41,868 nt of DNA from a virus (Duplodnaviria; Heunggongvirae; Uroviricota; Caudoviricetes): the IMG/VR virus record IMGVR_UViG_2974481312_000001, positions 1 to 41,868 of that record, one strand, 5' to 3'. Made by a program: the position numbers and the translations under genes. Shown here one piece after another: positions 16,425 to 23,290 of this stretch (position 1 is the stretch's first letter; the number at the start of each line of letters is the position of its first letter). Below the pieces are notes generated by a model. The model did no database searches. It saw only the letters and a program-made list of their open reading frames with translations, and had not been told where the DNA came from.

Positions 16425-18758
16425 TCAATATCCTGGTTGGCCGCGCGTAGCGCGACGTGCCTTAGAAATTGCGCTGTTACTATCCTGTAGCGCAGAACTT
16501 ACGGTTTCACTGATTATAATACGTAATCGCCCTTCGTCGTCACGTTCTGTTGTCGCTGAATCAATTTTTCCGGTGGTGTTGTTCACAATGGTAACATTAT
16601 CTCCTCCGGATTTAGCGCCGCTCTCCCCCATAATCTGTCGCATCTGTTCCGCTGTGCGTACACGAGAGGCACTCGCGGGCATGATTACTTCCGGTTTACC
16701 GCGTTCAGCAATAGTGGACATTTGACCGGCGGCCAGGCTACCTCCCTGTTCACGCGCTGACCGTATTTTACCGATGTTAGCCAGACCAGCGGCGACAGCG
16801 GCAGCGGCAGCTACAGGAGCAAGGAACGGTCCCACGACAGGGATCGCGGCGGTAGACTTATACGCTTCAATAGCCGAGGTATAGGTAGCGATTGTTGCCT
16901 GCGCGATAGCAAAGGCTTTATATGCCGTTGATGCTTCCCCTAGCGCGGCCCCGATGTTACTAGCCATATTACCGAATGCGGCGCCTGTTGCCTTCGCTCG
17001 GTCTAATGCGTAAGTATCATTCATTGCGTTTAGGGTCTGCTGGTATGTTTCTTCCGCGATTAAACCCTGCGCATGAAAATCGTTAAGTTTTTGTAGCTTG
17101 ACCTCGTACTGCCGGTCTAATTCCGCAAATTCTCCTTCAGCAAGGGCCTGCATCTGAGCGACATACGCATCTGCGGAGAATTGCTTTTCCAGGCGCTCTT
17201 TCTCGCGTTTATCTAACTCAGCCTGGCGGGCCGTATCCGCCTCGAGCATAATCTGCGTCTTAGCGGTTTCGTATTGCTGGTCACTAAGGAGACGGTTGCT
17301 GTAGAACTCCTGTAGCTTAGTAAGTTGCTCTTCTTGGTTAGCTTGTATCTTCTGGAATACGTCGTCGTTAAGGTGGATTGACTGATAATAGAAATCCTCA
17401 GCGGCTTTCTTCTGACGTTCGAATGCGTCGACGGATTTCTTAGCAGCATTGTCCGCGGAATCGCCTACAGAACCGTTGTCTTTACCCGACACTTTAAACT
17501 TACCAAGACCCTCGGCCTTGGCCGCTTCTTTATCGATGTCGTAAGCCGCGCGCTTCAATGCGATAAGGTCTTCCTGAGCTTCTACCTGTTCACGGAAACT
17601 TTTACGTGTCAGGTCAGTCACAGCTCTTTGGGTATCCATAGCAAGCGCTAACTGGAAGTTAAGGTTCTTGGCCTCAGCTACCGACTCTCCCGGCGCCAAT
17701 GCGGCCTTTACAAGACGTCCTGCATCCTGAGCGCCTTTAACCATATCTTCAAAAAACCGCTCCATTGCCGTAAATTCCTGTGCAATGAAGTCCAGCGCAT
17801 CAGCCGCTGATTCGGCTATTGTTGACGCGGTCTCCTCACCACTTCCGGTAATGCTTTCACTAGTGTAAGTCCAGGCGGAGTTCAAAGCGTTTAACGCGTC
17901 TGCAACCGTCCCAAACGCCGCGTCGAATGAAGCCTCTATCGCACCCCCAACATCGGATGCCATGTCACCCCACATCTGCATCTCGGCTACGAACTCACCG
18001 GATGCGACCTGAGCGTTTATCTCCTGTATCAGGTCGTCAATATAACGTAAAGGTTCCGCCAGCGATCCTACATCCAGACCAGTAGCGAGAGTCATCTCTA
18101 ACTGGGACCATGAGTCCTCCGCACTAGCGATAGCCCCGTTCAGGGTATTAGCCTGGTCAGCCATCGCCCCGGCGAAGTTAACGTTGCCTATGTTGAGGAG
18201 ATATCGCTCAATATCGGCAGCGTTTTTCTTAACTACAGTAGTCGTCCCCTGGAAGGTAAATTCGATATCACTTTGGTTCTGCTTGGCTTTAATGCCGAAT
18301 TCTTTCAGACGTTCGAATTCAAAGGTGCTCGCATCCGCGACGGCCTCAATCATCTGGTTAAGGTCTTTACCCATAGCGGATGCAGTATTGCCGTAAGAGC
18401 GGAGCGCTTCTTCTGATGGAGTGAGGCCTAGAGCTACCAGTTTACGGAACCCTTCCACTGCTTGTTCAAGGCCGTAAGGTGTGTCACGGGCGAAGTCCTG
18501 TAAAATACTCAGGGCCTGTTTTGCGCCTTGAGTACTGCCTGTGAGCGTTTTCAGGCTAGCCGACATCTTATCCAGTTGCCGTTGCGACTCGACTAGTTCC
18601 TGCGCCGCCTTATAGGCCATAGCGGCTACAACGGCAGCCAGTCCGGTGACCGCGGCCCCCGCAACTTTTGCAGATTTAGAGAGGTTATCAAGACGGTCTG
18701 ATGTGGCCTTCGCGCCTTGTTCGGTTACCTTTACTACTAAGCTAGCTACATCAGCCAT
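16425..18758 (-). CDS. Tail tape measure protein
   Basis: About 780 aa, Ala/Gln/Glu-rich coiled-coil composition, located after the G/GT chaperone; track start is TTG at 18773, nearest ATG at 18758. Confidence 0.8.
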   Translation of the reverse strand: MADVASLVVKVTEQGAKATSDRLDNLSKSAKVAGAAVTGLAAVVAAMAYKAAQELVESQRQLDKMSASLKTLTGSTQGAKQALSILQDFARDTPYGLEQAVEGFRKLVALGLTPSEEALRSYGNTASAMGKDLNQMIEAVADASTFEFERLKEFGIKAKQNQSDIEFTFQGTTTVVKKNAADIERYLLNIGNVNFAGAMADQANTLNGAIASAEDSWSQLEMTLATGLDVGSLAEPLRYIDDLIQEINAQVASGEFVAEMQMWGDMASDVGGAIEASFDAAFGTVADALNALNSAWTYTSESITGSGEETASTIAESAADALDFIAQEFTAMERFFEDMVKGAQDAGRLVKAALAPGESVAEAKNLNFQLALAMDTQRAVTDLTRKSFREQVEAQEDLIALKRAAYDIDKEAAKAEGLGKFKVSGKDNGSVGDSADNAAKKSVDAFERQKKAAEDFYYQSIHLNDDVFQKIQANQEEQLTKLQEFYSNRLLSDQQYETAKTQIMLEADTARQAELDKREKERLEKQFSADAYVAQMQALAEGEFAELDRQYEVKLQKLNDFHAQGLIAEETYQQTLNAMNDTYALDRAKATGAAFGNMASNIGAALGEASTAYKAFAIAQATIATYTSAIEAYKSTAAIPVVGPFLAPVAAAAAVAAGLANIGKIRSAREQGGSLAAGQMSTIAERGKPEVIMPASASRVRTAEQMRQIMGESGAKSGGDNVTIVNNTTGKIDSATTERDDEGRLRIIISETVSSALQDSNSAISKARRATRGQPGY

Positions 18759-19110
18759 CGTTTCTACCCTCAAAAATGGCGTCTAAGCCCATGATAATTT
18801 CAGATTCAAACATCCCTATATTCTGACCTGAAATAGTGCTATACGCCACTAAATCTGACCAACTAAGTTGCTCTCTTGGGTATAGCTTTACGCCGTCGTC
18901 ATCAACGCGGCGGGTGAATTTAACATCACGATACTTCTCAAAAGTGGTGAGTAGTTCAGGGGGGCATTCAGGCCCGGCGTCCTGCGTTGTTTCTCCCGCG
19001 TCTTTTATTACCCCCATAGCGATAAGCGCGGCTTTGTGCCCATCGGCGATACTGTCAAACTTGCGCCTTTCGTGGCGGGTTATGAAGTTCCAACGGGCAA
19101 ACTGAAACAA
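18751..19110 (-). CDS. Tail assembly chaperone frameshift extension (gpT-like)
   Basis: ORF in the -1 frame relative to 19116..19532, open across the upstream stop; no convincing independent ATG (track start is TTG). Confidence 0.45.
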   Translation of the reverse strand: MFQFARWNFITRHERRKFDSIADGHKAALIAMGVIKDAGETTQDAGPECPPELLTTFEKYRDVKFTRRVDDDGVKLYPREQLSWSDLVAYSTISGQNIGMFESEIIMGLDAIFEGRNDG

Positions 19111-19115
19111 CGCGT

Positions 19116-19532
19116 CTACTTTTCCTGCAATTGACGCAACTGTTCGTGGTGGAATACGACTACATGTTCCGCCAGGCGCTTATATTGGGTGAGAAGAGTC
19201 TTAAGATTTTCCTTAGTGAACTCATCATCGAGACTCCAGCCATTCACCAATTCGAGAGCCAATTGTCGGTTTAGGTCTCCTGCCGCGTCTTCCATTTTTA
19301 AATTGTATTCTGAGAAGTCTTTTTGCTCTTCGCATTTATCCCGAAGCGGCTTTAATTTACCTACCGCCGCTCGGTACGCCAGGGTGAAGGCACGCATAGC
19401 TTTAACCGCGACATCGGCCTCCGGGGAGACAACGTTCAACCATTCTCCTGAATCTGTACCATCTTTTAAAGGGATCGGCATGCGCGCGCCTTTCTCGGCT
19501 TCGGCTTCGTAGTAAAAATCGCTAAGTTTCAT
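19116..19532 (-). CDS. Tail assembly chaperone (gpG-like)
   Basis: 138 aa acidic protein directly upstream of the tape measure gene; ends ..CAG GAA AAG TAG. Confidence 0.6.
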   Translation of the reverse strand: MKLSDFYYEAEAEKGARMPIPLKDGTDSGEWLNVVSPEADVAVKAMRAFTLAYRAAVGKLKPLRDKCEEQKDFSEYNLKMEDAAGDLNRQLALELVNGWSLDDEFTKENLKTLLTQYKRLAEHVVVFHHEQLRQLQEK

Positions 19533-19638
19533 AGTAATGCCCTTTGGTTAGTCGGTTACTGGTTGGTAGTTGCACCAGGCGGGAACCACCCGCTTTTCCG
19601 GTGCGACCGTAGACGCCAAATAAGAATAACAAAATAGC

Positions 19639-19667
19639 TTGCATAACCGTTAATAGTGTCCTATTAT
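19639..19667 (+). promoter_or_regulatory. Sigma70-like promoter TTGCAT-17-TATTAT with TAATAG-TGTC-CTATTAT element
   Basis: Upstream of the plus-strand island inside the minus-strand tail operon. Confidence 0.5.
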
Positions 19668-19701
19668 CTCTACGTCAACTAAACAATATGAGGTTAAGAA
19701 C

Positions 19702-19881
19702 ATGAGCGTTTTTATCGGTATTATCGCGTTTATCTATTTCATTCCGTTCCTGGTAGCCTTGCTACGTAATCATAAAGCGAAATTAGGAATATTCGTATGC
19801 AATCTTTTACTGGGGTGGATTCTTCTGCCGTGGGTTGGGGCTCTCATCTGGGCCTGTAACTCTAATGTTAATGGTAAATAA
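19702..19881 (+). CDS. Small membrane protein resembling superinfection-immunity (Imm-like) proteins
   Basis: 59 aa, GAGG RBS 8 nt upstream; IYFIPFLVALLRNHKAKLGIFVCNLLLGWILLPWVGALIWAC; below the track cut-off. Confidence 0.55.
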   Translation: MSVFIGIIAFIYFIPFLVALLRNHKAKLGIFVCNLLLGWILLPWVGALIWACNSNVNGK

Positions 19882-19932
19882 TCTGGCTTAATCAAAATTA
19901 CATTATTAGAATCAGGTTTGTCTTAAGCAATC

Positions 19933-19942
19933 GGGGGGGGGG
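19933..19942 (+). repeat. G10 homopolymer tract in the RBS region of the 19950 gene
   Basis: Ten consecutive G, ending 7 nt before ATG 19950. Confidence 0.9.
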
Positions 19943-19949
19943 AATAAGC

Positions 19950-21080
19950 ATGGTAACTCGTAAAATAACAGATGAACAGTTGCAGCAAGAGCTAAACGCT
20001 GGTCTCGGGCCGACCGAAATCGCAAAGAAGTACAACATGTCACGCCGTAATGTTCAGCTAAGGTCAGCTCGTCTGGCCAAGAAAGGTGTTGGTCACGGTC
20101 GCGACGTAAGCCATCTGGTGCCGGATGGGTATAAAATAAAGGGTACGTCGTCACTGGTGGATGAGTTCGGCAATACGAAACTTCAGTGGGTTAAGACTGA
20201 CGCCGACGCCGAGCGTCAGGTCGAGTTGATGCGAGCCGTAATAGATGGGATGAAGTCCGATATTACGCCAGTTTCTTCGGTCCCTCGGCCTAAAAAGCGA
20301 CTAAACGAAAAGTTGCTAAATCTTTACACGATTTCTGACTTCCATTTAGGTATGTTGGCCTGGGCGGATGAGAGTGGCGACGACTGGGATATGAAGATTG
20401 CAGAAGACCTGTTCTCGAGATGGTTCGACGCGGCGTTTCAGAAGGCGCCTGATGCCGGTGTGGGTGTTATTAACCTATTAGGGGACTTTGCGCATTTTGA
20501 CAGCCTTGATGCCGTTACGCCTGCCAGTGGCCATGTACTGGACGCGGACACGCGTTACCAGAAACTGGTGCGCTACATGATTCGTATGGTCAGGCGCGTG
20601 GTTAATATGGCGCTTGTTAAGCATAAAAATGTTCATCTCCTAATTGTGCAAGGAAACCATGACGAGTCAGGCATGATTTGGTTGGCTGAAATGTTTAACA
20701 CTCTTTACGATAATGAACCTCGTGTTTTTGTAGATACATCAGCTGATGTCTACAAGATGGTCCAACACGGTAAGACGACCCTTTTCTTTCACCATGGGCA
20801 TAAGGCGAGATTCGATGCTATCGAACCAGTTATGATCGCCAAGTTCCGTAAGGCGTTCGGAGAGAGCGTTTACAGTTACGCCCATGTGGGCCACCTTCAC
20901 CATCAGAAGATTGTGGAAAGCCGTAACATGATTGTTGAACAACACCGCACTCTCGCGGCGAAAGATGCTTACGCATCACGTGGTGGATGGATGTCAGGCC
21001 GCAGCGCGAATGTTATTACTTACAGTGCCGAATACGGCGAAGTCGCGCGTTTAACTATTTCACCGGAGATGCTGGGATGA
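19950..21080 (+). CDS. Calcineurin-like metallophosphoesterase with N-terminal HTH domain
   Basis: Motifs ISDFHLG, LGDFAHFD, QGNHDE, FFHHGH, VGHLHH; N-terminal HTH-like segment LGPTEIAKKYNMSRRNVQLRSARL. Confidence 0.8.
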   Translation: MVTRKITDEQLQQELNAGLGPTEIAKKYNMSRRNVQLRSARLAKKGVGHGRDVSHLVPDGYKIKGTSSLVDEFGNTKLQWVKTDADAERQVELMRAVIDGMKSDITPVSSVPRPKKRLNEKLLNLYTISDFHLGMLAWADESGDDWDMKIAEDLFSRWFDAAFQKAPDAGVGVINLLGDFAHFDSLDAVTPASGHVLDADTRYQKLVRYMIRMVRRVVNMALVKHKNVHLLIVQGNHDESGMIWLAEMFNTLYDNEPRVFVDTSADVYKMVQHGKTTLFFHHGHKARFDAIEPVMIAKFRKAFGESVYSYAHVGHLHHQKIVESRNMIVEQHRTLAAKDAYASRGGWMSGRSANVITYSAEYGEVARLTISPEMLG

Positions 21081-21307
21081 CTAACAAATACAATCGCACA
21101 ATGACAAATACTGACGGAGATAGCATTACCTGTGATGTGTACGACGTTCTGAGGGCATTTGATATCCGCGACCCGGCACTACAGCATGCGTTGAAGAAAC
21201 TGTTGTGTATGGGCCTGCGGGGGCACAAGGACACAGGAACCGACTTAGCAGAAGCAATTGAAAGTCTGGAGAAGTTACGGAAATACCGTAGTAATATTGA
21301 TGAGTGA
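21077..21307 (+). CDS. Hypothetical protein (76 aa)
   Basis: ATG overlapping the stop of the previous gene (ATGA); followed by a strong terminator. Confidence 0.5.
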   Translation: MTNKYNRTMTNTDGDSITCDVYDVLRAFDIRDPALQHALKKLLCMGLRGHKDTGTDLAEAIESLEKLRKYRSNIDE

Positions 21308-21310
21308 GAA

Positions 21311-21339
21311 AAAGGCCCCTTTCGGGGCCTTTTTTTTTA
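21311..21339 (+). terminator. Rho-independent terminator
   Basis: Hairpin AGGCCCC-TTTC-GGGGCCT followed by T9. Confidence 0.85.
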
Positions 21340-21420
21340 TCGTCACGATAAAGAATCTGATTTGAGCGATAAGAATGTTCGAAGTTAAATATATCTACGC
21401 CAACAAGAGGAGATGAAACC

Positions 21421-22092
21421 ATGAACGAATTAATGAATGTTAGTGAAGCACAAACAATGTCCAGCCGTGAGATTGCGGAACTGACGGGGAAAGAACACGA
21501 CAACGTACGACGCGATATATTAAAAATGGCACAGGAACTTTCCCTCAATTTTGAGGAAAAGGTTTTGCCTTCAAACGGTGGCAGACCAAGTAAGGTATTT
21601 CTCTTAGACAAAGAAAATACATTAATCCTGGTTTCAGGGTACAGCATCAAAATGCGCGCTGCCATCATCCGCCGTTGGCAGGAACTGGAGTCACAAGCGA
21701 GCAAACCATCCTTACCGGTGCCCAAGACAATGGGGGAGGCTTTAAGGTTGGCTGCGGACTTGTGGGAGGAGAAAGAACGCCTTGCGCTTGAGAACAAGGA
21801 AATGGCGCCAAAAGCTGATGTCTACGACCGCATCATCGACAGAAATAACTTGTACAACGCGACGCAGGTTGCCCAGAAGTTCGGCCAATCTGCCGTGTGG
21901 ATGAATAAACAACTTGAACAATTTGGCGTATACAATCGCTCCGTAAAACGCGGTCGTGTCTTCCAGCAATGGTTCATCGATAAGGGTTACGGCATTATGC
22001 GTGAAACAGAAACCGGGCATTCACAGGCCATGTTCTTTGCAGAAGGTGAGATGTGGATTATTGGTAAGTTAACAGAAGAAGGTTTGATTTAA
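21421..22092 (+). CDS. Phage antirepressor (Rha-like N-terminal domain plus KilA-C/ANT C-terminal domain)
   Basis: N-terminal MSSREIAELTGKEHDNVRRDI; C-terminal DVYDRIIDRNNLYNATQVAQKFG..VYNR; AAGAGGAG RBS. Confidence 0.75.
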   Translation: MNELMNVSEAQTMSSREIAELTGKEHDNVRRDILKMAQELSLNFEEKVLPSNGGRPSKVFLLDKENTLILVSGYSIKMRAAIIRRWQELESQASKPSLPVPKTMGEALRLAADLWEEKERLALENKEMAPKADVYDRIIDRNNLYNATQVAQKFGQSAVWMNKQLEQFGVYNRSVKRGRVFQQWFIDKGYGIMRETETGHSQAMFFAEGEMWIIGKLTEEGLI

Positions 22093-22120: not shown

Positions 22121-23290
22121 TTAGGCGTACTTAATGCGCTGTATAACAATTGAAGACTGGAACTGGTTGCCGGTTGCCTGCCCCTCAAGAGAAAGGGTAA
22201 TAGACTCAGGGCCGCCGATTTCCGGAGTTGCGGACGTCAGTGAAGCACGTTTTAGTGTAAAGCTCATTGCACCATCCGGGCCATCAAGAACCGAAGATAC
22301 CTCCATTTCTGTTTCATCCAGGAATTTATTTAACAGCGTCATGTCGTACAGCTTACCCGCCAGCGAGAAGGTGTTAGCCGCGCGGCCACGTTCGACAAAT
22401 GCCACGCTGTTATTTCCCAACTCGAACTGTGCAGATGCCCCGTTGTCGTTAGTAATGGTGAACGTGTCAATAAGTTTAAGCGGCGCGGCTCCGTCATAAG
22501 CAGATACATCAACCGATGCAAACGGACGGGCTCTAAAATTGGTCGTGAAATCTGAACCGCTCGGCGGTGCTTGTAAGATTTCCTGATTCAAGCCGATGAA
22601 CGGGAAAGAACCGGTGACCATTGCGTTAACGGCTTGTTCGATGGTGAACCCGGTAAATTCAACACCACGAGTTATGATGTACGAATCAGGATTTCCGCAT
22701 TTACCTTTCAACCATGTCAGGATTGAATAGGTTTTACACAAGTTACCGGTTTCAAGTTTATCTGCGATACGCAAATCGGCTTGGGCGTCTGCCTGGGCGG
22801 TTAGGGTGTGCTGGATGCCCGCTCCGGTTATAGCTGTAGCTGTGACAGCCGTGACTATGAACGCTTTGTCGTTATTTCCGGATAAACCGTCGAACTGGAC
22901 AAGGTCGCCAACTTCAACACCGTCTGTTTCAAAACTACCGTTTGTGCGTGTGAAAGTTTTCGCCACCGGGTCTACGGTAACGCTGATTCCCGATTTAGTG
23001 GAACCCGCTACCCAGGAACTGGTCATTGCACCGGCTAACAGCTCGTCCTGGCTTGTCGCGCTTAGTTCGATAGCGTATTCACCAGTTACCTGGCGGTTAC
23101 CGGTGCGGATAGATGATGTTTCGCGGCTGCCGTCCAGCTCGTTAGAGATGAGGGCGTCGCGGGTTACGGCGGGAATACCCCCAGTGTTGCGCAGTGGTTG
23201 CCATACCGGGTTAGCGGGTGTTACCCCCGGCGTCGTCTCAAGAACGTAAAACTGCGCGGTCATCGCGCCCTTATATGGTTGTAACGCCAT
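22121..23290 (-). CDS. Major tail protein (putative)
   Basis: 389 aa ORF after the connector genes and upstream of the tail chaperone; assigned by position only. Confidence 0.45.
   Translation of the reverse strand: MALQPYKGAMTAQFYVLETTPGVTPANPVWQPLRNTGGIPAVTRDALISNELDGSRETSSIRTGNRQVTGEYAIELSATSQDELLAGAMTSSWVAGSTKSGISVTVDPVAKTFTRTNGSFETDGVEVGDLVQFDGLSGNNDKAFIVTAVTATAITGAGIQHTLTAQADAQADLRIADKLETGNLCKTYSILTWLKGKCGNPDSYIITRGVEFTGFTIEQAVNAMVTGSFPFIGLNQEILQAPPSGSDFTTNFRARPFASVDVSAYDGAAPLKLIDTFTITNDNGASAQFELGNNSVAFVERGRAANTFSLAGKLYDMTLLNKFLDETEMEVSSVLDGPDGAMSFTLKRASLTSATPEIGGPESITLSLEGQATGNQFQSSIVIQRIKYA

What the first reader, a model, noticed from the sequence alone, without database searches (positions are those of the whole stretch)
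19100..19130. Probable programmed -1 frameshift joining the tail chaperone ORFs (G/GT-like)
The chaperone ORF ends ..CAG GAA AAG TAG and the downstream ORF (18751..19110) is in the -1 frame, open across the stop, with no convincing ATG of its own. This matches the conserved G/GT translational frameshift of long-tailed phages. The slippery sequence here (GGAAAAG directly before the stop codon) is non-canonical, which makes the exact mechanism worth checking.
Basis: partly seen in the sequence, partly recalled or inferred. Interest (0 to 1): 0.4.

Follow-up and report, generated by a model that had tools for sequence, protein, structure and literature searches.

The report
Phage tail chaperone G/GT frameshift site
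This is the expected programmed -1 ribosomal frameshift that makes a long (GT) and a short (G) tail-assembly chaperone in a Jersey-like Salmonella phage; it is already annotated in near-identical phages, and its one unusual trait is a minimal slip signal (A_AAG) sitting directly against the stop codon.

Summary
On the minus strand a 138-codon chaperone ORF (19532..19116) ends CAG GAA AAG TAG. The -1 frame is open from 61 nt before that stop to 18751, just ahead of the tape measure gene. Pfam calls both halves tail assembly chaperones, and one PHROG profile spans them as a single 259-position protein.

In 74 distinct junctions from related Guernseyvirinae phages, the only invariant elements are the tetramer A_AAG, an immediately adjacent TAG/TAA, and GCGYTG six bases after the slip codon. 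The first bases of the "heptamer" vary, and the -1 overlap can be as short as 7 nt. Synonymous-site conservation peaks exactly at the junction. No conserved downstream RNA structure, upstream Shine-Dalgarno-like element or start codon for the second ORF was found.

Best reading: a low-level -1 slip of tRNA-Lys from AAG to AAA while the ribosome waits at the stop codon, giving a 260-aa GT fusion.

The frameshift is already annotated in Salmonella phage Shelanagig (identical junction), in K1ind2 and in others, though many records, including the 100%-identical ones, miss it. It is ordinary and known. The stop-adjacent minimal signal is a modest point of interest.

The parts
19116..19532 (-). G-like tail assembly chaperone ORF (138 aa, 15.9 kDa), frame 0, including the TAG stop
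   Evidence: Pfam PF08748 Phage_TAC_4, E=3e-8. PHROG 15027 positions 1-138, E=2e-49. Mass.
19119..19125 (-). Proposed shift site G_GAA_AAG. The invariant core is the tetramer A_AAG at 19122..19119. Base 19119 (G) is read twice.
   Evidence: for the sequence. A_AAG is present in 74/74 distinct family junctions, whereas positions 1-3 of the heptamer vary (GGA 52, CGC 8, AGC 5, GGT 4, GGC 2, AAA 2, GGG 1). Codons G137 and G138 show 100% identical-codon use among synonymous pairs, against a family mean of 0.44.
19116..19118 (-). Frame-0 TAG stop immediately 3' of the slip codon ('shifty stop'), followed by A at 19115
   Evidence: The stop abuts AAG in all 74 junctions: TAG 52, TAA 22, never TGA. 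The following base is A (60) or C (14), never G or T. In the window's other large ORFs TGA is 13/44 and the +4 base is G/T in 23/44.
19108..19113 (-). GCGTTG (family: GCGYTG), a 3' patch conserved at synonymous sites (T codons 3-4, Ala-Leu); role unexplained
   Evidence: GCGCTG 63 and GCGTTG 11 of 74. T3 and T4 are among only 6 of 107 codon columns with an identical-codon fraction of 0.8 or more.
19119..19179 (-). Stretch in which the -1 frame is already open upstream of the frame-0 stop, i.e. where a shift could occur (the -1 frame TAA is at 19182..19180)
   Evidence: In relatives this stretch shrinks to 16 nt or even 7 nt, which confines the shift to the last two codons.
18751..19119 (-). 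T segment, -1 frame (122 aa plus TGA). With G it gives GT = complement(join(18751..19119,19119..19532)), 260 aa, 29.7 kDa, junction ...QLQEK-VDALFQFARW...
   Evidence: Pfam PF23812 Phage_TAC_18, E=1e-18. PHROG 15027 positions 139-259. Residues V139, A141, L142, F159, D160, I162, G165 and H166 are invariant in relatives of 44-90% identity. Mass.
16425..18758 (-). Tape measure protein gene (context). Its ATG at 18758 overlaps the T stop (ATGGCTGA).
   Evidence: PHROG 1538, E=2e-215. The same start is annotated in relatives.
22121..23290 (-). Tail tube protein gene (context). It is separated from G by about 2.6 kb of opposite-strand genes.
   Evidence: Pfam PF18906 Phage_tube_2, E=2e-39. ORF map.

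Best explanation
This is a programmed -1 ribosomal frameshift at the 3' end of the tail assembly chaperone gene of a Jerseyvirus. Most ribosomes terminate at TAG and make G (138 aa). A minority slip back one base on A_AAG, with peptidyl-tRNA-Lys(UUU) re-pairing from AAG to AAA. They then read GUA (Val) and continue in the -1 frame to make GT (260 aa). By analogy with lambda, the G part of GT should bind the tape measure protein and the T part should recruit the tail tube protein.

The most likely sub-mechanism is inferred, not shown. The slip would occur after translocation, with tRNA-Lys in the P site and the slowly decoded stop codon (TAG/TAA followed by A or C) in the A site. That is a one-tRNA 'hungry/shifty-stop' route, which needs no RNA structure. 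In the window's G_GAA_AAG version, tRNA-Glu can also partly re-pair (GAA to GGA) and may raise efficiency.

Shown here: the ORF geometry, the homology, and nucleotide-level conservation of A_AAG-UAR. Inferred: that slippage happens, its efficiency, and the role of the stop codon.
For: One PHROG profile of 259 positions covers G and T as a single protein.

In 79 loci found by protein similarity and walked in frame 0, independently of the motif, 78 end in NNA AAG TAR. The exception, L017, has a G reading frame broken earlier by apparent indels, and its junction motif is intact.

Across 74 distinct junctions, A_AAG plus an adjacent stop is invariant, while the preceding codon changes amino acid (Glu, Ala, Val, Lys, Gly) yet always ends in A. 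Lys138 is always AAG, although AAG is only 41% of Lys codons in these genes. The -1 overlap is as short as 7 nt.

Synonymous conservation is concentrated at G137, G138, T1, T3 and T4. T residues 1-34 are conserved, yet several lineages have no ATG/GTG/TTG in the first 50-67 T codons.

There is no conserved downstream structure, no conserved upstream SD-like element, and no phage tRNA.

Literature: A_AAG is by far the most shift-prone tetramer in E. coli (PMC4066793). It is used at cdd A_CGA_AAG and IS1222 G_CGA_AAG (PMC5009743). One-tRNA P-site slippage needs no structure, and tRNA-Glu slips on G_GAA when the A site is slow (PMC6771820).

Joined 'frameshift product' CDSs exist in Shelanagig (identical junction), K1ind2, fFiEco03, fTaEco01, Smarc3 and AH01.
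Against: No experimental detection of GT in this phage group was found in the held literature, so all public support is annotation or prediction.

A_AAG without a stimulator gave only about 0.15% frameshifting in E. coli reporters, barely above the roughly 0.11% background (PMC4066793). A useful GT level therefore requires the stop codon or the GCGYUG patch to stimulate, which is untested.

The family sequences are related, so invariance overstates the number of independent observations.

A sister paper on a phage with the identical junction (Shashou) stated there is 'no canonical slippery sequence' and left T as a separate hypothetical protein.
Confidence: 0.85

Rival explanations
1. Same GT product, but made by classical two-tRNA (tandem) slippage on the heptamer G_GAA_AAG during translocation. 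tRNA-Glu would be in the P site and tRNA-Lys in the A site, and the stop codon would play no mechanistic role.
For: In 61 of 74 junctions heptamer base 1 equals base 2 (G_GNA or A_AAA), so the P-site tRNA can re-pair at its first position. Codon 136 ends in G in 18 of 24 lineages even though its amino acid varies. One lineage has the lambda heptamer G_GGA_AAG and two have the dnaX heptamer A_AAA_AAG. tRNA-Glu slippage on G_GAA is documented.
Against: 13 of 74 junctions are C_GCA_AAG or A_GCA_AAG, where tRNA-Ala cannot re-pair in the -1 frame, yet the arrangement is kept. This model does not explain why the stop codon is invariably adjacent, never TGA, and never followed by G or T. Tandem slippage in bacteria normally relies on a downstream structure or upstream SD, and none is conserved.
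Confidence: 0.3
2. T is a separate protein, made by independent initiation or by termination-reinitiation at the TTG at 19110 (family: YTG) eight bases after the stop. No fusion protein is made.
For: TTG at 19110 is in frame, with AGGA 12 nt upstream. Several GenBank records annotate it this way and even mark an RBS. The YTG codon and the preceding GCG are strikingly conserved.
Against: In 63 of 74 junctions the codon is CTG, a very poor initiator. Lineages with ACGCAAAG upstream lack any SD-like sequence. Several lineages have no ATG/GTG/TTG in the first 50-67 T codons, although those residues are conserved. This model gives no reason for A_AAG invariance at synonymous positions. Distant relatives also use the -1 frame with A_AAG inside a longer overlap and no nearby start.
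Confidence: 0.05
3. The frame change is made at the RNA level, by transcriptional slippage (RNA polymerase inserting an extra A in the A run).
For: The site contains a run of A (AAAA in the window).
Against: The run is only 4 A in the window and 3 A in the GCAAAG/GTAAAG lineages. From established knowledge, productive transcriptional slippage needs roughly 7-9 or more identical bases. This model also does not explain the invariant G after the run or the adjacent stop.
Confidence: 0.02

Closest known systems
Bacteriophage lambda G/GT tail assembly chaperone frameshift (Levin, Hendrix & Casjens 1993; Xu, Hendrix & Duda 2004, 2013, 2014; summarised in PMC5009743)
   Same: Two overlapping ORFs lie just upstream of the tape measure gene. 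The second is in the -1 frame without its own start. The slip codon is AAG, decoded by tRNA-Lys. The expected outcome is a short abundant product plus a rare C-terminally extended one. As recalled for lambda, no strong RNA structure is needed.
   Different: Lambda uses the canonical heptamer G_GGA_AAG some distance before the stop. Here the heptamer is G_GAA_AAG, only A_AAG is conserved, and it abuts the stop. The G and T proteins belong to other Pfam families (PF08748, PF23812) than lambda gpG/gpT. The tail tube gene is not adjacent (2.6 kb of opposite-strand genes intervene).
Annotated GT joins in the same subfamily: Salmonella phage Shelanagig NC_073195 (PMC6763656), Escherichia phage K1ind2 GU196280 ORF21A/21B, fFiEco03, fTaEco01, Serratia Smarc3, Pantoea AH01
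   Same: Same gene pair, same 782-nt joined CDS, and same junction. Shelanagig and Shashou are identical to the window at the bases compared across the junction, and Shelanagig's G protein is 100% identical.
   Different: Nothing biological. The records 100% identical to the window (f2SE, f3SE, fSE1C, fSE4S) and 12 of the 18 related records inspected lack the join.
Tetranucleotide A_AAG -1 sites: Bacillus subtilis cdd (A_CGA_AAG) and IS1222 (G_CGA_AAG); systematic E. coli data in Sharma et al. 2014 (PMC4066793)
   Same: The shift depends on tRNA-Lys re-pairing from AAG to AAA, with a P-site codon that need not re-pair.
   Different: Those sites are reported with helpers (an upstream SD-like element or a downstream structure). 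None is conserved here; instead a stop codon is adjacent.
'Shifty stop' recoding: prfB (CUU_UGA_C) and antizyme, where a stop in the A site promotes slippage of the P-site tRNA (PMC5009743, PMC10885494)
   Same: The slip codon is immediately 5' of a stop codon in a poor termination context (+4 is C or A).
   Different: Those are +1 shifts. prfB also needs a closely spaced upstream SD. Here the shift is -1 and no SD is conserved.
E. coli dnaX -1 frameshift (A_AAA_AAG plus upstream SD plus downstream stem-loop)
   Same: The A-site/slip codon AAG and the tRNA-Lys(UUU) mechanism are shared, and a one-tRNA route exists on dnaX under starvation (PMC6771820).
   Different: The heptamer, the SD and the stem-loop are all absent in the window.

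Membership tests
G/GT-type tail assembly chaperone frameshift of long-tailed phages | Pair of ORFs located between the major tail/tube gene and the tape measure gene, immediately upstream of the latter | tested here: met
   G is 19532..19116 and T is 19119..18751. The TMP ATG at 18758 overlaps the T stop. The tube gene 23290..22121 is upstream but separated by opposite-strand genes.
G/GT-type tail assembly chaperone frameshift of long-tailed phages | Second ORF in an alternative (-1) frame, open across the first ORF's stop, without its own conserved start or RBS | tested here: met
   The -1 frame is open 61 nt upstream of the stop. No start codon is conserved, and some lineages have none for 50-67 codons.
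G/GT-type tail assembly chaperone frameshift of long-tailed phages | Canonical X_XXY_YYZ slippery heptamer in the overlap | tested here: not met
   G_GAA_AAG is not X_XXY_YYZ. Only 3 of 74 family junctions have a canonical heptamer (G_GGA_AAG once, A_AAA_AAG twice). The Z_ZZN tetramer A_AAG is present in all.
G/GT-type tail assembly chaperone frameshift of long-tailed phages | Arrangement and shift site conserved among diverged relatives | tested here: met
   96 loci and 74 distinct junctions, with GT identity down to 44%. Synonymous-site conservation peaks at the junction.
G/GT-type tail assembly chaperone frameshift of long-tailed phages | Both halves recognisable as tail assembly chaperone domains | tested here: met
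   PF08748 scores 34.3 bits against a cutoff of 21.1. PF23812 scores 67.6 bits against a cutoff of 27. PHROG 15027 matches both.
G/GT-type tail assembly chaperone frameshift of long-tailed phages | Both G and the GT fusion are actually produced at a fixed ratio and needed for tail assembly | not testable with these tools
   No proteomic or genetic data for this group were found in the held literature.
Z_ZZN tetranucleotide -1 frameshift sites (A_AAG class) | In-frame A_AAG at the point where the frames must switch | tested here: met
   An overlap as short as 7 nt confines the switch to GCA_AAG in some lineages.
Z_ZZN tetranucleotide -1 frameshift sites (A_AAG class) | Accompanying stimulator (downstream hairpin/pseudoknot or upstream SD-like sequence) | tested here: not met
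   RNAalifold predicted 0 pairs. The window's downstream 45-nt MFE of -6.7 is weaker than the gene average of -7.7. A candidate 4-bp hairpin was no better than slid controls. An SD-like 6-mer at the right distance occurs in only 8% of lineages. No Rfam family reached its gathering score.
Z_ZZN tetranucleotide -1 frameshift sites (A_AAG class) | AAG decoded by a single tRNA-Lys(UUU) (no CUU isoacceptor) | not tested
   Established for E. coli (PMC5009743) and assumed for Salmonella. The phage encodes no tRNA.
Stop-codon-stimulated ('shifty stop') P-site slippage | Stop codon immediately 3' of the slip codon, in a weak termination context | tested here: met
   TAG or TAA is adjacent in 74/74 junctions, and the +4 base is A or C in 74/74. 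+4U enhances termination and +4C weakens it (PMC5289835).
Stop-codon-stimulated ('shifty stop') P-site slippage | Frameshift level responds to release factor activity or to removal of the stop | not testable with these tools
   Requires reporter assays.

The most novel reading that the evidence does not exclude
The Guernseyvirinae G/GT signal may be a distinct, structure-free -1 recoding cassette, A_AAG-UAR-(A/C)N-GCG-YUG. In this reading, GT output is set by kinetic competition between RF1-dependent termination and P-site tRNA-Lys slippage. The synonymously conserved GCGYUG would then be a previously undescribed linear 3' stimulator; by my positional estimate it lies at the mRNA entry channel when AAG is in the P site. 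This would be a natural bacterial/phage example of stop-codon-stimulated -1 (rather than +1) programmed frameshifting.
Probability: 0.3. Interest if true: 0.5.

Novelty: already known. Interest (0 to 1): 0.22.

Why it matters
The practical value is in annotation. More than 450 Jersey-like and Kagunavirus phage genomes, many of them proposed for Salmonella or E. coli biocontrol, share this junction. Only 6 of the 18 related records inspected annotate GT. The records identical to the window call both ORFs 'hypothetical protein'. Two papers from one group reached opposite conclusions about the same sequence.

The comparative result, that A_AAG plus an adjacent stop is the conserved signal, gives a simple rule for annotators and for frameshift predictors that only look for listed motifs (PMC10885494).

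Mechanistically, it offers a compact natural test case for whether a stop codon alone can raise tetramer slippage from about 0.1% to a useful level.

Tried and rejected
- Conserved downstream stem-loop or pseudoknot. RNAalifold on 22 diverse junctions (-10 to +107) gave no pairs. Local MFE downstream of the site is not lower than elsewhere in the genes for most lineages, including the window. A few relatives (L006, L014, L035, L072/73) do have stable hairpins, but these are not shared.
- A small GCGC/GCGC hairpin between T codons 3-4 and 8-9. It was 70.5% paired, against 73.9% for a slid control, with no compensatory changes.
- Upstream SD-like stimulator. None is conserved. The window's AGGA is immediately adjacent to the site, not 10-14 nt away.
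- Known RNA families. There were only sub-threshold chance hits.
- Sigma-70 promoter or intrinsic terminator within 18600..19950. The scan found none. A TTGACG-17-TATTAA seen by eye at 19678..19650 fails the scan's criteria.
- Solved-structure relatives of GT by sequence. None was found.
- A second A_AAG-TAG ORF end in the window (endolysin, 36373). It has no -1 ORF and looks like a chance occurrence.
- Anany et al. 2015 (PMID 25663216) and Poole et al. 1995 could not be read.
- Not run, judged unnecessary: the large protein searches and structure prediction.

Full report
**What the window is.** The 1.1-kb region around the finding is 100% identical to Salmonella phages fSE1C, f2SE, f3SE and fSE4S. 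It matches 456 phage records, almost all Jerseyvirus or Kagunavirus (Guernseyvirinae). The relevant genes are on the minus strand.

**Checking the observation.**
- The ORF 19532..19116 (138 aa) ends TTG CAG GAA AAG TAG.
- The frame whose codons start one base 5' of frame 0 (the -1 frame) has a TAA at 19182..19180. It then stays open for 142 codons, across the TAG, to a TGA at 18753..18751.
- The +1 frame is closed.
- The T stop overlaps the ATG of the tape measure gene (ATGGCTGA, 18758).
- The first possible start in the -1 frame is TTG at 19110, and the first ATG is 35 codons in.
- GGAAAAG abuts the stop and is not X_XXY_YYZ.
- Within the 61-nt overlap, A_AAG is the only in-frame Z_ZZN motif.

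**What the ORFs are.**
- The upstream ORF matches Pfam Phage_TAC_4. The downstream ORF matches Phage_TAC_18. The next gene is a tape measure protein, and 23290..22121 is a tail tube protein.
- PHROG 15027, a 259-position 'tail assembly chaperone' profile, matches the first ORF at positions 1-138 and the second at 139-259. The fused protein is therefore already represented in a public family.
- The predicted fusion is 260 aa and 29.7 kDa, against 15.9 kDa for G.

**Comparative evidence.** I collected 16 annotated relatives and 80 viral contigs found with a GT protein alignment.
- Walking frame 0 from the start of the protein match, independently of any motif, 78 of 79 usable loci end NNA AAG TAR, and G is 138 codons in nearly all. 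The exception, L017, has apparent indels earlier in G, but its junction is intact.
- Over 74 distinct junction sequences, the heptamer is GGAAAAG 52, CGCAAAG 8, AGCAAAG 5, GGTAAAG 4, GGCAAAG 2, AAAAAAG 2 and GGGAAAG 1.
- The stop is TAG 52 or TAA 22, never TGA. The next base is A 60 or C 14, never G or T.
- The six bases that start six nt after the slip codon are GCGCTG 63 or GCGTTG 11.
- The -1 overlap ranges from 205 nt down to 7 nt. A 7-nt overlap leaves only GCA_AAG as a possible shift site.
- For comparison, the window's other large ORFs use TGA in 13 of 44 cases and have G or T after the stop in 23 of 44.

**Synonymous-site test.** I used 24 lineages that are less than 92% identical around the junction. 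For each codon column I computed the fraction of same-amino-acid sequence pairs that use the same codon.
- The mean over 107 informative columns is 0.44.
- Only six columns reach 0.8, and five of them are G137, G138, T1, T3 and T4.
- Codon 137 changes amino acid (Glu, Ala, Val, Lys, Gly) but always ends in A.
- Lys138 is always AAG, although AAG is 41% of Lys codons in these genes.

This is nucleotide-level selection centred on A_AAG-UAR and extending to GCGYUG. Because the sequences are related, these counts overstate the number of independent events.

**Is T made on its own?**
- GT residues just after the junction are conserved (V139, A141, L142, F159, D160, I162, G165, H166 are invariant at 44-90% identity).
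- The codon corresponding to the window's TTG is CTG in 63 of 74 junctions.
- Several lineages have no ATG, GTG or TTG in the first 50-67 T codons.
- Lineages with ACGCAAAG have nothing SD-like upstream.

Independent initiation or reinitiation is therefore not a credible family-wide mechanism.

**Stimulators.**
- RNAalifold finds no shared structure in the 107 nt after the site.
- The window's downstream 45-nt folding energy (-6.7 kcal/mol) is weaker than the average for the two genes (-7.7).
- A candidate 4-bp hairpin is no better than slid controls.
- SD-like hexamers 12-22 nt upstream occur in 8% of lineages and not in the window.
- No Rfam family reaches threshold.
- The phage has no tRNA genes.

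**Mechanism.**
- In E. coli, A_AAG is by far the best -1 tetramer. On its own it gives only about 0.15%, and 5.6% with a pseudoknot (PMC4066793).
- It is used at B. subtilis cdd (A_CGA_AAG) and IS1222 (G_CGA_AAG), and its efficiency depends on the two 5' bases (PMC5009743).
- A one-tRNA P-site route operates when the A-site codon is decoded slowly. It needs no structure, and tRNA-Glu is known to slip on G_GAA in that situation (PMC6771820).
- +4U strengthens termination and +4C weakens it (PMC5289835).
- In other phage sets, slippery sites lie on average 26-36 nt from the stop (PMC10885494), so zero spacing here is an extreme.

Putting this together, the best-supported model is slippage of peptidyl-tRNA-Lys from AAG to AAA while a weak-context UAG/UAA waits for release factor, followed by decoding of GUA. 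In the window's G_GAA_AAG, partial re-pairing of tRNA-Glu may help.

The classical tandem-slippage model remains possible. Most lineages keep G at heptamer position 1, and a few have fully canonical heptamers. However, it explains neither the C_GCA/A_GCA lineages nor the invariant stop. Both routes give the same protein.

Transcriptional slippage is unlikely on runs of 3-4 A.

**More distant relatives.** A Vibrio phage and two Acinetobacter phages (26-31% identity in G) also place T in the -1 frame. They have in-frame GTA_AAG or CAA_AAG inside a longer overlap rather than at the stop. A_AAG use is therefore older than the stop-adjacent arrangement.

**What is already known.**
- Joined 'frameshift product' CDSs are annotated in Shelanagig (RefSeq NC_073195; G 100% identical, junction identical), K1ind2 (2010), fFiEco03, fTaEco01, Smarc3 and Pantoea AH01.
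- The Shashou paper from the same group says there is 'no canonical slippery sequence' (PMC6776780) for a junction that is base-for-base the same.
- Twelve of the 18 related records inspected, and the records identical to the window, lack the join.
- No experimental demonstration was found.

**Verdict.** It is a known, routinely expected feature of siphophage tail modules and is already annotated for this exact sequence. The added value here has three parts. The conserved signal is the tetramer A_AAG abutting the stop, not the heptamer. The usual stimulators are absent. A conserved GCGYUG patch remains unexplained.

Noticed in passing
window 19108..19113 (-), and the same position in L001-L096: GCGYTG (Ala-Leu codons 3-4 of T) is invariant at synonymous positions across lineages that are otherwise about 50% identical. 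It is not part of any conserved hairpin, and no explanation was found. By my positional estimate it would lie near the ribosome's mRNA entry channel when AAG is in the P site.
   Followed up: partly
window 36373..36861 (-): The endolysin-like ORF also ends GCA AAG TAG, but the -1 frame closes after three codons and a terminator-like hairpin follows. It serves as a chance control, showing that the motif alone is not diagnostic.
   Followed up: yes
window 19702..22092 (+): Four opposite-strand genes sit between the tail tube gene and the chaperone gene: a 59-aa protein annotated as superinfection immunity in relatives, a metallophosphoesterase/'DNA repair exonuclease' (19950..21080), a 106-aa ORF (20987..21307), and a Rha/KilAC antirepressor (21421..22092). 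The G-T-tape measure block is therefore separated from the tail tube gene and presumably has its own promoter.
   Followed up: partly
L101 6760..6860 (Shashou) versus L100 970..1060 (Shelanagig): Two 2019 genome announcements from one group make opposite statements ('no canonical slippery sequence' versus 'contains the slippery sequence needed') about junctions that are identical to each other and to the window.
   Followed up: yes
L097 (Vibrio phage VspDsh_1), L098 and L099 (Acinetobacter phages 53 and Bhz9): Distant G homologues also have a -1 frame T ORF. Their likely slip sites (G_GTA_AAG, CAA_AAG twice) lie 30-40 nt before the stop, and none of these records annotates a join.
   Followed up: partly
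L006, L014, L035, L072, L073 (just 3' of the junction): A minority of relatives have unusually stable hairpins (-16.7 to -19.6 kcal/mol in 45 nt) starting a few bases after the slip site, unlike the window. These may be lineage-specific stimulators.
   Followed up: partly
L017 (IMGVR_UViG_638275545), G region: The G reading frame switches twice (around codons 13 and 95), although the protein is otherwise near-identical. These are probably sequencing errors in an older genome. The junction motif is intact.
   Followed up: partly
window 19572..19616 (-) and 19650..19678 (-): The ~170-nt leader upstream of G contains a weak sub-threshold Rfam hit (int-alpA, 21 bits against a gathering score of 35.8). 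It also has a by-eye TTGACG-17-TATTAA promoter-like sequence that the scan's criteria reject. Phage PVP-SE2 annotates a promoter somewhere in the matched region.
   Followed up: no
window 18758 versus 18773 (-): The mechanical ORF list starts the tape measure ORF at TTG 18773, whereas relatives annotate the ATG at 18758, which overlaps the T stop codon (ATGGCTGA).
   Followed up: no
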